Assembly: GCF_009914755.1 (NCBI RefSeq)
Contig: NC_060925.1
Reading direction: 5' to 3' (one strand)
From: the human T2T-CHM13v2.0 reference genome, Homo sapiens
DNA: 64,000 bases
The notes below the pieces were generated by a model. That model was not told the origin of the DNA and made no database searches. It saw only the letters and a list, made by a program, of their open reading frames with translations. Each line of letters begins with the position of its first letter. Within the stretch, counting starts at the first letter, position 1. This document shows positions 42,756 through 54,039 of the stretch, in pieces. Made by a program: the position numbers and the translations under genes.

Positions 42756-42896
42756 CACTGGAAGATTCTTAAGTGTGGGTCCCAAATATTATTTATTTTA
42801 CTATCTCAGGAACCAAATACAAACTGACATATCATAGGGATACATTTATAGTAATATTTATAAAAAGAATGAATACGTATTTAATTTTTATCAGTA

Positions 42897-43530
42897 TTTG
42901 ATGATGAATTTTGTGTGTCAACTAGACTCGGTTAAGAAGTACCTAGAGAACCGGTAAAGCAGTACTACAGGTATGCCTGTGAGTGTGTTTCAGAGGAGAC
43001 TGGAGTGTGGATCAATAGACTGAGTGAGGCAAGTCTGCCCTCAATGGAGCACTATCCAAATGGCTGAGGGCCTGGATAGAACAGCAAGAGCAATTTCTTC
43101 TCTCTTTCCTGGAGCTGGAATCCTCCTCTTCTCCTGCCCTTAGATAGCAGAACACCAGGCTCTCTGGCCTTGGCATGCTAGGCCTTATAATGCAGCCTCC
43201 TGGATTCTCAGTCTTCCAGCCTCAGACTGAGAATTATACCATTGGCTTCCTGGTTCTGAGGCTTCTGGACTAGGACTGAGCCACACTATCAGCATCCCAG
43301 GGTTGCCAGATTGCAGATAGCCTGTCATGGGACTTCTCATCCTTCACAATTATGTGAGCCAATTCTCCTAATAAATCACCTGTTTATCTATCTAATCTAT
43401 CTATCTATCTATCTATCTATCTATCTATCTATCATCTATCTATCTATCATCTATCTATCTATCTATCTATCTATCTATCTATCTTTCCATCTTACTGATT
43501 CTGACTCTCTGAAGAACCCTGACAAATGCA
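42897..43530 (+). mobile_element. MLT2-family (ERV-L) 5' LTR
   Basis: T(T)TGATG..AATTTTGTGTGTCAACT...GAACCCTGACAAATGCA. Homologous to 52514-53090. Preceded by TSD CAGTA (42892-42896). Confidence 0.93.
43385..43484. repeat. Compound (TCTA)n tetranucleotide STR inside 5' LTR
   Basis: About 100 bp of TCTA units with TCA interruptions, read directly. Confidence 0.95.
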
Positions 43531-43826
43531 GAATTTGGAACAAAGAAGTGGGGCTTCTGCTATAACAAATACCTGAAAATGTGAAAGTGGCTTTGGAACT
43601 GGGTAATGGGTAGAAGCCAGAAGAATCTGGAGGAGCGAGCTAGAAAAAGTCCATATTACCATGAATGAAACCTTAAGGACAATTCCATGAGGGCTGAGAA
43701 GACGAGCTGTAGGAAGTACCTAAATCTTCTTAGGGATTACTTAAGTGGTTATGATTAGAATGTTGGTAGAAATATAAACAGTAAAGGCCATTCTGATGAG
43801 GTCTTAGACAGAAATTAGGAATATCT

Positions 43827-43878
43827 GTGTGTGCATGTGTGTGTGTGTGTGTGTGTGTGTGTGTGTGTGTGTGTGTGT
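43827..43878. repeat. (TG)n microsatellite
   Basis: Read directly. Confidence 0.97.
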
Positions 43879-43993
43879 TATTAAGTGTATGCCCCTTTAA
43901 GGCTTTTAATTGTGATTCTCTTTACATTTTATCTTTTCCTTATTGGAATAGTTCCTGCATTTCTAAAAAGTCACAATAAAAACATAAAAGTAA

Positions 43994-44285
43994 TTTTTTT
44001 TTTTGAGACAGAGTCTCACTTTTTCACCCAGGCTGGAGTGCAGTGGTGTGATCTTGGCTCACTGCAAGCTCCGCCTCCTGGGTTCATGCCATTCTCCTGC
44101 CTCAGCCTCCTGAGTAGCTGGGACTACAGGCGCCTGCCACCACACCTGGCTAATTTTTTGTATTTTTAGTAGAGACAGGGTTCCACTGTGTTAGCCAGGA
44201 TGGTCTCAATCTCCTGACCTCCTGATCTGCCCGTCTCAGCCTCCCAAAGTGCTGGGATTACAGGCATGAGCCACTGCGCCCGGCC
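43994..44285 (-). mobile_element. AluY-like element
   Basis: Antisense Alu with CACTGCAAGCTCCGCC and TTAGCCAGGATGG. TSD AAGTAATTT on both sides. Confidence 0.95.
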
Positions 44286-51700: not shown

Positions 51701-51714
51701 CTGCTAGTCAGAGG

Positions 51715-51990
51715 ATGAAAACTTCCACCAGGAGACAATAATGATTCCACTGAACTGGAAGTTAAGACTGCCACCTAGGCTCTTTGGGCACTTTATGCTT
51801 CTGAGTCAACAGACTAAGAAAGAAGTTGTAGTGTTGGCTGGGATGGTTGAGCCAGGCTTCCCAGAGGAAATTGAAACTACTACTCCATAATGGATGTAAG
51901 GAAGAGTATGGCTGGAATACAGGAGATCACTTAGAAAGTGTCCTAGTATTACCATGCCCTGTGGTTAAGGTCAATGGGAAATTACAACAA
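51715..51990 (+). pseudogene. ERV-L dUTPase, disrupted
   Basis: CCACCAGGAGAC..ATGATTCCACTGAACTGGAAGTTAAGACTGCCACC (IPLNWKLRLPP) and LLLHNG..LVLPCPVVKVNGKL, located downstream of integrase as expected in ERV-L. Confidence 0.75.
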
Positions 51991-52513
51991 TCCAATCCAG
52001 GCAGGACTACAAATGGTCCAGACCCTTCAGGAATGAAGGTTTGAGTTACCATGCCAAATAAAAAACAATGACCAGCTGGGGTGATTGCTGAAGGCAAAGG
52101 GAATACAGAATGGTTTACAGAAGGTAGTTACAAATATCAACTATCACAGCATGACCAGTTACAGAAAAGAGAACTATTTCATGACTATTTCTTCCTTACT
52201 TGGTTAAGAATATGTTTGTGTGTATATAGACATATATTAGGCAAATATCTTTGTTTTCATTCTTTTCTTATTCCTTTATCATGTAACATAAGACATATTG
52301 ACTTTATAACAATATTTAAGTACTGTTCATTTTACATCATAGTATTTAAGTTATGGGATATCCAGAGAATAGTAAACATTACCCAAGGACTTCACTTGAG
52401 GGAAGGATTAGTACATTTTCAGTAGGAACTATTACCTTGTTGTTACCTTTGTTTGGAGATTAAGTATGGTTTAAAGAAATACATATGGGTGCCAAGTTGA
52501 CTTGGGGTAGACT

Positions 52514-53090
52514 TGTGATGGTTAATTTTAGTTGTCAACTTGACAGGATTTCGAAATACCCAGAGAGTTTGTAAGCATTGCTTCTGGCTGTGTCTGCAAG
52601 GGTGTTTTCAGAGGAGAGTGGCATGTGAGTCAGTGAACTGAGTGAGGCAGATCTGCCCTCAATGTGGGTGGGCACCATCCATTTGGATGAAGGCCCAGAT
52701 AGAACAGAAAAGGGAGAGAAAAAGAGATATCCTTTCTCTTCCACCCTCCAGGAGCTGGGATGCTCTTCTTCTCCTACTTTTGGACATCAGAACTCCAGGC
52801 TCTCTGGCCTTTGGATTCCAGGACTATGCCAGTGCCCACTCCTCCCCATGTCTCACTCAGGCCTTTTCCACTGAACTAAGAATTACATCATCTGTGTCCC
52901 CCCTTCTGAGGCTTTTGAACTAAGACTGAGCCACACTGTCACCATCCCAGTGTCACCAGCTTGCAGCAGGCCTGTCATGGGACTTCTCAGACTCCATAAT
53001 CATGTGAGCCAAATTTCCTAATAAATCCCTTCATCTATCTACCTATCTCTCCTACCTGTTCTGTTTCTCTGGAGAACCCTGGCTAATACA
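52514..53090 (+). mobile_element. MLT2-family (ERV-L) 3' LTR
   Basis: TGTGATGGTTAATTTT...GGAGAACCCTGGCTAATACA, followed by TSD CAGTA (53091-53095). Confidence 0.95.
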
Positions 53091-54039
53091 CAGTACTGTG
53101 CTTTGAACTCCTCACAAGAAAGGTCCTAAAAAGTTAATGTCTATTATAAATATTCTCCTGAAATAGCTCAAATACATTGATACATATTATATATAAATGC
53201 AAAAATATGAACTCTTTAAGCACACTTCTTAAAACTCGGAAAATATCTGTGATTTGATTGATAGCTTACTTACCTATATTTTTCTCCTTAGAAATCACTT
53301 TCACACAAGCAGCATGTCAGGGTTCTTTATGGGAACAAAGTTTAACTCAAATTGTATTGTGGCTGTGTTTCAGCCAAGTTGATTATAGAGCCAGAAAACT
53401 AAGACTTGGTGTTTGTGGAAGGCAGAGGCAGATACAGATCTTGCACGAAAGCCTGTCCCCTGAAATTAGAGATGGATGAGAGATATGGACTTATTTTTTA
53501 GGATATGTTCCTTCCTGGATGTCAGATGCCATTTGTCACACCACAGATTTTGCTGTCTATCAGGATCTAGGTAAAAAGGTATTTCAGAGCTTAAGGAGTT
53601 TCTCTCCATATGAGCATTTTTATCCAAAGAGGCAGTCTCAATTTCTCTGAGAAGTTTAGAAAGTTGGAGAAAAGTACAACAGTGTGTGCACCATGGTATT
53701 TGGTAGGTTAGTTTTGTAGCTCAACTACTTCCTAATTTTAGAATCTACATTAATTCATTTATTCTTCTAATTCATTTATTCTTCTAGGGTGATTTCAACA
53801 AATCTATGTGTCCATGGTCTAACATGAACTACATGTATCCATGGTCTAAACATGAACTACATGGCTGTAAACAGTTTTCACTGATGACAAACTTAGTACC
53901 AGCGAGTAGTTGAGAAACTGGGAGAATCAATTTATTAAAAGTTGCAGATATGAGCATAGTTTGACACTATGCTTCAAAAGGCTTAAAAAAACAGTGCATA
54001 CCTAGTCACATAGTAAGTTTAGTTACAGGGCTATAAGGT

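What the first reader, a model, noticed from the sequence alone, without database searches (positions are those of the whole stretch)
42892..53095. Chimeric ERV-L/MaLR provirus: a one-LTR MaLR unit embedded at the primer-binding site of an ERV-L, under one TSD
Seen: the order is MLT2 LTR (42897-43530) > MaLR internal > PPT > MST LTR (46826-47117) > ERV-L gag-pol-dUTPase > MLT2 LTR (52514-53090), all co-oriented. The whole 10.2 kb is flanked by one 5-bp TSD, CAGTA. The MaLR part has no 5' LTR and no TSD of its own, so it is not an ordinary nested integration. Known: MaLRs are non-autonomous and are thought to be mobilised by ERV-L enzymes. Inference: this is a fossil of direct helper/parasite recombination, either template switching between co-packaged ERV-L and MaLR RNAs, or a single crossover of a MaLR one-LTR circle into the ERV-L PBS. 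Repeat annotation would list the pieces separately and miss the unit.
Basis: partly seen in the sequence, partly recalled or inferred. Interest (0 to 1): 0.85.

Follow-up and report, generated by a model that had tools for sequence, protein, structure and literature searches.

The report
Fused ERV-L and MaLR retroelement fossil
An ancient human endogenous retrovirus (ERV-L) and its non-coding hitch-hiker (MaLR) lie fused into one 10.2-kb insertion, which suggests the two were copied inside the same virus-like particle.

Summary
Window 42897-53090 reads MLT2-type LTR, full MaLR internal region, MST-type LTR, ERV-L internal region, MLT2-type LTR. It is flanked by CAGTA on both sides (0 of 168 shifted controls match as well). 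Both inner junctions sit exactly at LTR end / spacer / primer-binding site (PBS). There is no 5' MST LTR and no inner target-site duplication.

RT and weak RNase H and integrase signals are present; dUTPase could not be detected.

ERV-L and MaLR share about 16-18 nt of PBS and a similar LTR terminus. In the human genome I found eight simpler recombinants:
- Four are MLT2 LTR, MaLR-int, MST LTR. Duplications match 5/5, 5/5 and 3/5; one is untestable.
- Four are MaLR LTR, ERV-L-int, MLT2 LTR. Duplications match 4/5, 4/5 and 2/5; one is untestable.

Best reading (0.68): a recombinant made before integration, by strand transfer at the shared PBS between co-packaged ERV-L and MaLR templates. The kind is known in plant LTR retrotransposons; six library searches found no report of this helper/parasite case. 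No second copy of the full composite was found.

The parts
42892..42896 (.). Left target-site duplication CAGTA
   Evidence: identical to 53091-53095; 0 of 168 shifted controls reach 5/5.
42897..43530 (+). 5' LTR, MLT2 type (ERV-L LTR). Holds an expanded ATCT microsatellite at about 43384-43487.
   Evidence: aligns with 52516-53051; aligns with LTRs that precede ERV-L leaders elsewhere. Family name recalled.
43531..43553 (+). Junction A: 4-nt spacer GAAT (ERV-L length) followed by a MaLR-type primer-binding site
   Evidence: junction table, against 8 canonical MST>MaLR-int and 8 canonical MLT2>ERV-L-int junctions.
43531..43826 (+). MaLR internal region, part 1 (begins at its first base)
   Evidence: 76-81% identity to the start of MaLR-int copies; 24 of 29 of those have an MST-like LTR upstream.
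43827..44539 (-). Later 713-bp insertion: a retrocopy ending in a SNORD45 copy (44457-44539), with a TG repeat and a secondary Alu (about 43997-44285). Flanked by a 17-nt direct repeat (43810-43826 / 44540-44556).
   Evidence: sequence; Rfam SNORD45, 56.6 bits against a gathering score of 42.
44540..44838 (+). MaLR internal region, part 2
   Evidence: colinear with canonical copies.
44839..45143 (+). Later Alu insertion with a 15-nt duplication (44824-44838 / 45144-45158)
45144..46145 (+). MaLR internal region, part 3
   Evidence: 65-76% identity over up to about 980 nt with canonical MaLR-int copies.
46146..46724 (-). Inverted copy of the local MST-LTR 3' half + spacer + PBS + first 76 nt of the ERV-L leader. 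It holds a later Alu (46262-46563) and keeps about 100 nt of LTR that the direct copy has since lost.
   Evidence: 146 matches, 10 mismatches and 2 indels against 47032-47193. This is 6.4% divergence, against 27% between the outer LTRs.
46721..46825 (+). MaLR internal region 3' end, with a 25-nt tandem duplication (46721-46745 / 46746-46770) next to the inverted block
   Evidence: (this segment matches the stretch before the 3' LTR in canonical copies).
46826..47117 (+). Middle LTR, MST type (MaLR), MST-like from first to last base, with one internal deletion
   Evidence: its 5' part, middle and 3' end each match LTRs flanking canonical MaLR-int copies. Name recalled.
47118..47141 (+). Junction B: MaLR-type spacer GAGAA followed by an ERV-L-type primer-binding site
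47118..52513 (+). ERV-L internal region, heavily decayed. RT about 49319-49951, RNase H-like about 50004-50303, integrase core about 51185-51442.
   Evidence: colinear with ERV-L copies. (foamy-virus PR-RT, E 6.5e-9). (RT_RNaseH_2 E 6.7e-4; rve E 9e-6; both below cut-off). dUTPase not detected.
52514..53090 (+). 3' LTR, MLT2 type
53091..53095 (.). Right target-site duplication CAGTA

Best explanation
One integration event inserted a recombinant DNA made before integration, inside a particle that had packaged both an ERV-L RNA and a MaLR (MST) RNA. The two families use the same primer-binding site and have similar LTR termini.

Proposed steps (inferred):
1. Minus-strand DNA copied from the ERV-L RNA reached the PBS.
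2. Instead of stopping, it paired with the PBS of the MaLR RNA and ran on through MaLR U5-R.
3. It made the normal R-mediated jump to the MaLR 3' end and copied MST U3, the polypurine tract and the MaLR internal region down to the MaLR PBS.
4. The ERV-L plus-strand strong-stop DNA (a full MLT2 LTR plus PBS) then landed on that PBS.

The product is MLT2 LTR, MaLR-int, pure MST LTR, ERV-L-int, MLT2 LTR. The ERV-L integrase inserted it with a 5-bp duplication.

Simpler crossed plus-strand transfers in such mixed particles give the hetero-LTR elements seen at other loci.

Shown: the architecture, the junction positions, the duplication, and the existence of reciprocal hetero-LTR recombinants with duplications. 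Inferred: co-packaging and the exact order of strand transfers.

Much later the locus gained an inverted local duplication, a deletion in the middle LTR, three Alus and a snoRNA retrocopy.
For: 1. One 5-bp duplication encloses the whole 10,194 bp; 0 of 168 shifted controls do as well.

2. Both inner junctions fall at LTR end/spacer/PBS. Junction A has the MLT2 end, a 4-nt spacer of ERV-L length, then a MaLR-type PBS and MaLR leader. Junction B has the MST end, a MaLR-type spacer, then an ERV-L-type PBS and ERV-L leader. This is what the PBS-switch order predicts.

3. The canonical junctions of the two families share about 16-18 nt of PBS and a similar LTR terminus (8 + 8 copies). Beyond that, local alignment of the ERV-L leader against MaLR-int scores no better than shuffles (31-34 against a shuffle maximum of 33).

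4. The middle LTR is MST-like throughout and the outer LTRs are MLT2-like throughout.

5. Four loci are MLT2 LTR, full MaLR-int, MST LTR with nothing after (C9, C3, C5:114.15M, C10). Duplications are GTCTC/GTCTC, ACTTC/ACTTC and ATTAT/GTGAT; C10 is untestable.

6. Four loci are MaLR LTR, ERV-L-int, MLT2 LTR (C6, C5:63.78M, C2, C15). Duplications match 4/5, 4/5 and 2/5; C15 is untestable. Over the seven testable elements, 28 of 35 positions match, against about 1.3 of 5 in shifted controls.

7. Crossover points differ between loci (spacer types). C9 crosses about 240 nt into the leader, at a short patch that both families share. That argues for separate events.

8. MaLR and MLT2 insertions share a 5-bp duplication and a target motif (passages of PMC2836564).

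9. PBS homology guides the second strand transfer (passages of PMC6894440).
Against: - The outer LTRs are no more alike than unrelated MLT2 copies (0.27 against 0.27-0.29). A single integration therefore rests on one 5-bp match plus the seamless junctions.
- In four of the eight other recombinants (C5:114.15M, C10, C5:63.78M, C15) the spacer is of the internal region's family, not the LTR donor's. Plain plus-strand strong-stop transfer does not predict this. These need a crossover in the LTR terminus, or decay has blurred 4-5-nt spacers.
- C2 and C5:63.78M share one internal deletion junction but have unrelated flanks. Not every recombinant locus is therefore an independent event.
- Two loci have poor duplications (3/5 and 2/5).
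- Genome searches score only 40 of about 1,400-4,900 candidates, and my queries contained LTR ends. Counts are biased lower bounds.
- No orthologous or empty site could be examined.
- Co-packaging itself is not observable in DNA.
Confidence: 0.68

Rival explanations
1. Recombination of finished, unintegrated double-stranded DNAs rather than strand transfer during reverse transcription. Either a MaLR one-LTR circle crossed once into the PBS region of linear ERV-L DNA, or linear DNAs crossed over. Ordinary integration followed.
For: It gives the same composite with pure LTRs and one duplication. A single crossover between linear ERV-L and MaLR DNAs anywhere in the shared terminus/PBS/leader would yield both reciprocal hetero-LTR classes. 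That includes the loci whose spacer type does not fit plus-strand transfer, and the C9 leader crossover. A rice preprint proposes recombination before integration for hetero-LTR elements (abstract of 10.1101/452573).
Against: The homology is very short (about 16-35 nt) for DNA homologous recombination, whereas reverse transcriptase uses the PBS for strand transfer as a matter of course. The spacer/PBS pattern at both window junctions is what the strand-transfer order predicts. The sequence cannot decide between the two.
Confidence: 0.12
2. Post-integration history: a complete MST element inserted into an ERV-L provirus beside its PBS and later lost exactly its 5' LTR. Alternatively, ectopic recombination or gene conversion between separate elements built the arrangement.
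For: Nested MaLR-in-ERVL insertions are common (1842 events listed in Table 1 of PMC2836564). This locus did undergo later rearrangement (inverted duplication and a deletion). One other locus (C14) looks like an ERV-L nested in a MaLR element followed by a deletion.
Against: - There is no MST LTR remnant and no inner duplication; the flanks of the MaLR unit are ATGCA and GAGAA.
- The deletion would have to remove the LTR to the base while keeping both the MLT2 terminus and the MaLR spacer/PBS.
- The ERV-L sequence either side of the supposed insert is not contiguous with a duplicated 5-mer.
- The same junction types recur at eight other loci, four of them with outer duplications. Deletions cannot create those.
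Confidence: 0.07
3. The window holds a copy of a chimeric family that already existed and bred true. The recombination happened earlier, elsewhere.
For: Two recombinants of the MaLR-LTR/ERV-L-int class (C2 and C5:63.78M) share one internal deletion junction with unrelated flanks. Some recombinant structure was therefore made or copied more than once.
Against: - No other locus has MaLR-int upstream of a MaLR-LTR/ERV-L-leader junction, or ERV-L-int downstream of the MST LTR of an MLT2/MaLR-int element.
- With the window's own junction as query, only 2 of 40 other hits span it: its own inverted copy and C6.
- A 10-kb RNA would have to read through the middle LTR's polyadenylation signal.
Confidence: 0.06
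4. The CAGTA match is chance, and the outer LTRs come from different events. The block would then be two hetero-LTR recombinants, or other pieces, fused by a later rearrangement.
For: The outer LTRs are no closer to each other than to unrelated copies. A 5/5 match has a prior of about 1 in 1000 per placement, which is not negligible across a whole genome scan.
Against: The junctions on both sides of the shared middle LTR are seamless. 0 of 168 shifted controls reach 5/5. Both LTRs fall in the same MLT2 similarity group (0.26-0.32 within the group, 0.30-0.43 (mostly 0.35 or more) to the other copies). Both flanks are single-copy.
Confidence: 0.05

Closest known systems
Complex LTR-retrotransposon insertions in grasses made by template switching (Sabot and Schulman 2007, PMC1950507; first of two parts of the text read)
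   Same: Three LTRs and two internal domains form one unit. The unit has flanking 5-bp duplications and outer LTRs of one kind, and is read as a single reverse-transcription and integration event on two co-packaged RNAs.
   Different: In grasses both halves belong to one family (Angela, Squiq, Opie), and the model uses R-region pairing. Applied here, that model would make the middle LTR a hybrid of MST U3 and MLT2 U5, which is not seen. Here the halves are an autonomous ERV-L and its non-autonomous MaLR, the middle LTR is wholly of the other family, and the switch point is the PBS.
'Abnormal' rice LTR retrotransposons with swapped LTRs (Zeng and Sun, bioRxiv 10.1101/452573; abstract only)
   Same: Elements whose two LTRs differ yet carry duplications, explained by recombination before integration.
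   Different: Those recombinants form within one plant family. The human cases join two families that share only the LTR terminus and the PBS, and they occur as both reciprocal classes.
Retroviral and LTR-element recombination through strong-stop strand transfers (review by Drost and Sanchez 2019, PMC6894440; passages)
   Same: Co-packaged RNAs, an R-guided first transfer and a PBS-guided second transfer are the recombinogenic steps.
   Different: The review describes mosaics with two identical LTRs. Hetero-LTR and three-LTR products between a helper and its parasite do not appear in the passages I saw.
Mosaic HERV chains (Vargiu et al. 2016, PMC4724089; passages)
   Same: MaLR pieces are reported inside HERV chains. 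Three MaLR-containing chains were left unexplained, one of them with a MuERVL Pol-like product.
   Different: There the MaLR pieces lie mostly on class I or class II backbones, are often antisense, and are judged to be secondary integrations or software artefacts. No PBS-level ERV-L/MaLR junction or hetero-LTR class is described in those passages. The supplements were not read.
Ordinary nested insertion of a MaLR into an ERV-L (Levy et al. 2010, PMC2836564; passages)
   Same: MaLR sequence lies inside ERV-L sequence, and both families make 5-bp duplications.
   Different: A nested element has two like LTRs (or one solo LTR) and its own duplication. Here there is one LTR, no inner duplication, and junctions at the PBS.

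Membership tests
ERV-L provirus (class III ERV with MLT2 LTRs) | Paired LTRs with TG...CA ends and a 5-bp target-site duplication | tested here: met
   CAGTA on both sides, LTRs alignable over about 545 nt. A 5-bp duplication for MLT2 and MaLR is stated in PMC2836564.
ERV-L provirus (class III ERV with MLT2 LTRs) | Spumavirus-like reverse transcriptase in pol | tested here: met
   the top five solved-structure hits are foamy-virus PR-RT chains (E 6.5e-9 to 1.5e-8), ahead of MLV RT (1e-4). Pfam RVT_1 itself was not detected.
ERV-L provirus (class III ERV with MLT2 LTRs) | RNase H and integrase core downstream of RT | tested here: inconclusive
   RT_RNaseH_2 at 20.1 bits (cut-off 29.8) and rve at 26.3 bits (cut-off 32.6). 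Both are in the right order but below the curated cut-offs.
ERV-L provirus (class III ERV with MLT2 LTRs) | dUTPase at the C-terminus of Pol (stated for HERVL in PMC4724089) | tested here: inconclusive
   no Pfam or PDB match in 51560-52104 in any frame. The region does align with other ERV-L copies. Decay may hide the domain.
ERV-L provirus (class III ERV with MLT2 LTRs) | Same LTR-to-leader arrangement as the genomic family | tested here: met
   19 other loci with this leader: in 9 an MLT2-like LTR 3' end abuts it, in 4 only the LTR 5' part was hit at the right distance, 2 have a MaLR LTR instead, and 4 are unclear. In the window, however, the leader is preceded by an MST LTR, not MLT2.
ERV-L provirus (class III ERV with MLT2 LTRs) | PBS complementary to a leucine tRNA (recalled origin of the name) | not tested
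   The PBS was compared only between copies, not with a tRNA.
MaLR element (MST LTR with MST-type internal region) | Internal region of about 1.7 kb without pol, colinear with the genomic family from PBS to the stretch before the 3' LTR | tested here: met
   the four segments occur in the same order in canonical copies. No Pfam domain was found in its open frames.
MaLR element (MST LTR with MST-type internal region) | Two like MaLR LTRs flanking the internal region | tested here: not met
   Only the 3' MST LTR is present; upstream is an MLT2 LTR. Canonical copies: an MST-like LTR lies upstream in 24 of 29, MLT2-like in 2 of 29, none detected in 3 of 29.
MaLR element (MST LTR with MST-type internal region) | Its own 5-bp target-site duplication | tested here: not met
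   ATGCA against GAGAA at the unit's edges.
Template-switch complex LTR insertion (Sabot and Schulman type) | Internal LTR, two complete core sequences, flanking duplication, outermost LTRs of one kind | tested here: met
   'Similarity of the outer LTRs' holds only at subfamily level because of age.
Template-switch complex LTR insertion (Sabot and Schulman type) | Formation by R-region pairing between two RNAs of one family | tested here: not met
   The halves are of different families. The middle LTR is MST-like to its last base, not an MST-U3/MLT2-U5 hybrid.

The most novel reading that the evidence does not exclude
ERV-L and MaLR left a systematic fossil record of mixed particles. It consists of reciprocal hetero-LTR proviruses and this three-LTR composite, all crossing over at the shared LTR-terminus/PBS zone, in at least two epochs (MST with an older MLT2 group, THE1-like LTRs with a different MLT2 type).

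Three of the four MaLR-LTR/ERV-L recombinants lack the polypurine tract and the start of the 3' LTR. This suggests that ERV-L deletion derivatives unable to prime their own plus strand were completed by the MaLR's plus-strand strong-stop DNA. In that case the parasite occasionally rescued defective copies of its helper.

A genome-wide tally of such junctions would turn the long-assumed 'ERV-L mobilises MaLR' into a countable, datable observation.
Probability: 0.35. Interest if true: 0.7.

Novelty: new variant of a known kind. Interest (0 to 1): 0.5.

Why it matters
MaLRs make up about 4% of the human genome and encode no polymerase (introduction of PMC10735291). That ERV-L enzymes moved them is an inference from shared features such as the 5-bp duplication and the target motif (PMC2836564).

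A provirus in which a whole MaLR unit and a whole ERV-L unit are joined at the primer-binding site under one duplication is physical evidence. So are the reciprocal hetero-LTR recombinants elsewhere. Together they indicate that the two kinds of template met in one reverse-transcription complex.

The finding also bears on annotation and dating:
- Such units are likely to be split into unrelated pieces by repeat annotation.
- Dating an element from its LTR pair is meaningless when the two LTRs are of different families.

The locus has no evident present-day function. The interest is in retroelement biology, not in human gene function.

Tried and rejected
- Pfam on the 17 plus-strand open frames of 60 aa or more gave only a spurious hit. 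I switched to whole frames read with X at stops.
- Pfam and PDB searches for dUTPase and protease found nothing. The only PDB hit in the dUTPase region was an unrelated reductase at E 0.01.
- LTR likeness as proof that the outer LTRs are a pair was rejected: 0.27 to each other against 0.27-0.29 to unrelated copies.
- The R-mediated double-jump model was rejected because the middle LTR is not a hybrid.
- A paralogous empty site was sought with each flank. Both flanks are single-copy.
- Extended homology between the ERV-L leader and MaLR-int is not above shuffles.
- Segmental duplication as the link between C2 and C5:63.78M was rejected: homology stops at the element ends.
- The inverted block as a remnant 5' MST LTR was rejected. 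It carries the ERV-L leader, lies at the 3' end of MaLR-int, and is only 6.4% diverged from the local direct copy.
- Six literature searches found no report of ERV-L/MaLR PBS-level recombinants. The library lacks most subscription papers, including the original MaLR and HERV-L descriptions.

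
Full report
**What is in the window**

I read 41400-47300 and 52300-53700 directly and compared 42000-54000 with the whole window by BLAST.

The outer LTRs are 42897-43530 and 52514-53090. They align over about 545 nt at 72% gapped identity. Both begin with the same TG-type terminus and end in CA. CAGTA lies immediately outside on both sides (42892-42896 and 53091-53095). With the ends fixed by alignment to other copies, the flanks match 5/5, and none of 168 shifted placements does as well.

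The block between the LTRs is laid out as follows.

| Coordinates | Content |
|---|---|
| 43531-46145 and 46721-46825 | MaLR internal region |
| 46826-47117 | MST-type LTR |
| 47118-52513 | ERV-L internal region |

Later insertions inside the MaLR internal region:

- A 713-bp retrocopy carrying SNORD45.
- Two Alus (about 43997-44285 and 44839-43) — the second is 44839-45143.
- An inverted block at 46146-46724, which itself holds a third Alu.

The names MLT2, MST and THE1 are recalled. No Dfam or RepeatMasker tool was on hand. What the calls show is membership of the corresponding multi-copy families in this genome.

**Identity of the two internal regions**

The window's assembly could be searched. 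With the start of the putative MaLR-int as query, I examined 29 other loci:

- In 24 an MST-like LTR lies directly upstream, followed by the same four segments in the same order and often by a 3' MST-like LTR.
- In 3 no LTR was detected.
- In 2 the upstream LTR is MLT2-like.

With the MST-LTR/leader junction as query, I examined 19 other loci:

- In 9 an MLT2-like LTR 3' end abuts the leader.
- In 4 only the LTR 5' part was hit.
- 2 have a MaLR LTR instead.
- 4 are unclear.

The coding content of 47118-52513 is badly decayed. Open frames gave nothing in Pfam. Frames read with X at stops gave three signals:

- Reverse transcriptase: the best solved relatives are foamy-virus PR-RT, E 6.5e-9, as expected for a class III element.
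- RNase H-like: E 6.7e-4, below the Pfam cut-off.
- Integrase core: E 9e-6, below the Pfam cut-off.

dUTPase was not detected.

**The junctions**

lines up the last 30 nt of the LTR and the next 62 nt for the window and for other loci. Canonical MST>MaLR-int junctions (8 copies) and canonical MLT2>ERV-L-int junctions (8 copies) share a PBS of about 16-18 nt and a similar LTR terminus. They differ in three respects:

- Spacer: 5 nt and A-rich in MaLR; 4 nt (GATT) in ERV-L.
- A few PBS positions.
- Everything downstream of the PBS.

Beyond the PBS, the ERV-L leader and MaLR-int are not alignable above shuffled controls. The exception is a short patch about 240 nt in.

| Window junction | LTR end | Spacer | PBS and leader |
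|---|---|---|---|
| Left (43530/43531) | MLT2 | 4 nt, ERV-L length | MaLR type |
| Right (47117/47118) | MST | MaLR type | ERV-L type |

There is no MST LTR remnant at 43530. The 5 nt either side of the MaLR unit do not match.

**The inverted block**

46146-46724 is the reverse complement of the local MST LTR 3' half, spacer, PBS and first 76 nt of the ERV-L leader. Excluding its Alu, it shows 146 matches, 10 mismatches and 2 indels against 47032-47193. That is 6.4% divergence, against 27% between the outer LTRs and 15-21% between this leader segment and other ERV-L copies.

It is therefore a later local inverted duplication, or it has been homogenised. It is not a relic 5' LTR.

- It keeps about 100 nt of LTR that the direct copy has since lost.
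- It abuts a 25-nt tandem duplication.

It does not affect the main argument.

**Other loci**

Fetching around the exceptional hits showed two reciprocal classes.

| Class | Structure | Locus | Duplication | Note |
|---|---|---|---|---|
| A | MLT2 LTR, complete MaLR-int, MST LTR, then flank | C9 | GTCTC/GTCTC | Crossover about 240 nt into the ERV-L leader |
| A | same | C3 | ACTTC/ACTTC | |
| A | same | C5:114.15M | 3/5 | |
| A | same | C10 | untestable | 5' LTR truncated |
| B | MaLR (THE1-like) LTR, ERV-L leader and more, MLT2 LTR | C6 | 4/5 | |
| B | same | C5:63.78M | 4/5 | |
| B | same | C2 | 2/5 | PBS-like stretch after the 3' LTR |
| B | same | C15 | untestable | Pol retained; 3' end damaged |

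Over the seven testable elements, including the window, 28 of 35 duplication positions match. Shifted controls give about 1.3 of 5. An element with two different LTRs under one duplication must have been assembled before integration.

Crossover positions differ between loci, which argues for several events. However, C2 and C5:63.78M share one internal deletion junction with unrelated flanks, so those two are not independent.

None of the eight has a second internal region. The three-LTR composite is so far unique.

Junction-centred searches found few spanning hits:

- 2 of 39.
- 4 of 40.
- 2 of 40.

These searches score only 40 of 1,358-4,933 candidates, and the queries contained LTR ends. The counts are biased lower bounds.

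**Mechanism**

The second strand transfer of reverse transcription is guided by PBS homology (passages of PMC6894440). If ERV-L and MaLR RNAs share a particle, a crossed plus-strand strong-stop transfer gives class A and class B elements.

The composite needs one more step. Minus-strand DNA arriving at the ERV-L PBS continues on the MaLR RNA through U5-R, jumps to the MaLR 3' end, and copies the whole MaLR. The MLT2 strong-stop DNA then lands on the MaLR PBS.

This order predicts three pure LTRs, a MaLR-type spacer at the right junction and an ERV-L-type spacer at the left junction. All of these are observed.

The R-pairing model proposed for grass complexes (PMC1950507) predicts a hybrid middle LTR, which is not observed.

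In four of the eight other recombinants the spacer type does not fit plain strong-stop transfer. Crossovers within the similar LTR termini, recombination of unintegrated DNA, or decay must be invoked for those.

**Age**

The outer LTRs differ at 27% of 542 sites. With a recalled neutral rate of about 2.2e-9 per site per year, this means very roughly 60-100 million years (inference).

At this age the two LTRs are no more alike than unrelated copies of their subgroup. Pairing therefore rests on the duplication and the seamless junctions.

The window's LTRs group with the 5' LTRs of the class A loci (0.26-0.32). The MLT2 LTR of a class B locus is 0.37-0.43 away. This hints at two epochs of recombination.

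**Comparison with what is known**

Three-LTR complexes under one duplication, and hetero-LTR elements made before integration, are described for plant retrotransposons within one family.

Mosaic HERVs containing MaLR pieces were reported, but mostly as secondary or artefactual inclusions (passages).

Six searches of the open library found no description of PBS-level ERV-L/MaLR recombinants. The library lacks most subscription papers, and I did not read supplements.

**Verdict**

I rate this a new variant of a known kind. It is a real and rather neat fossil supporting the helper/parasite link, of moderate interest (0.5), with no sign of present function.

Noticed in passing
window 43827-44539 (SNORD45 copy at 44457-44539, minus strand): A 713-bp insertion lies inside the MaLR internal region, bounded by a 17-nt direct repeat (43810-43826 / 44540-44556). 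On the minus strand it starts with a full-length SNORD45 match (Rfam 56.6 bits, model 1-72 of 72) and ends in a CA repeat. It looks like an L1-type snoRNA retrocopy, later hit by an Alu that has its own 9-nt duplication. RefSeq already lists it as LOC124904807.
   Followed up: partly
window 46146-46770: The inverted local duplication sits next to a 25-nt tandem duplication, and a GGGG run is shared at its right junction. This pattern resembles replication-based template switching after a break. It is 6.4% diverged from its source yet predates an Alu insertion. The source copy later lost about 100 nt that the inverted copy keeps.
   Followed up: partly
window 42277-42670: A solo THE1-like MaLR LTR lies about 230 bp upstream of the composite, in the same orientation, inside what looks like an old L1 fragment. 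It is not part of the composite; a sequence that is single-copy in the genome lies between them.
   Followed up: no
L022 (G000:C2:179556308-179557661) and L058 (G000:C5:63780456-63781803, minus): Two MaLR-LTR/ERV-L-leader/MLT2-LTR elements share the same internal deletion junction (early gag joined to the LTR interior at a TGGCT microhomology). Their flanks are unrelated, and their 5' LTRs are only 72% alike against 77.5% over the whole element (the leader is 84% alike between L058 and L023). Either the deleted recombinant was copied, or one deleted ERV-L RNA lineage lacking the polypurine tract acquired a MaLR 5' LTR twice.
   Followed up: partly
L022 positions 6645-6665 (G000:C2): In this element the 3' MLT2 LTR is followed by an ERV-L-type spacer and a PBS-like stretch of about 18 nt before unrelated DNA, and its duplication is poor (2/5). 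An LTR plus PBS at the right end is what a plus-strand strong-stop DNA looks like, which suggests an aberrant end.
   Followed up: no
L024 (G000:C14:76058001-76068000, minus): The 5' 700 nt of MaLR-int is followed by an MLT2 LTR and a nearly complete ERV-L-int, which then runs straight into the 3' part of MaLR-int with no ERV-L 3' LTR. This is either a nested ERV-L plus a deletion, or another kind of recombinant.
   Followed up: no
window 43384-43487 versus 53033-53051: The ATCT microsatellite near the end of the 5' LTR has expanded to about 100 nt. The 3' LTR keeps only a short imperfect version of it.
   Followed up: no
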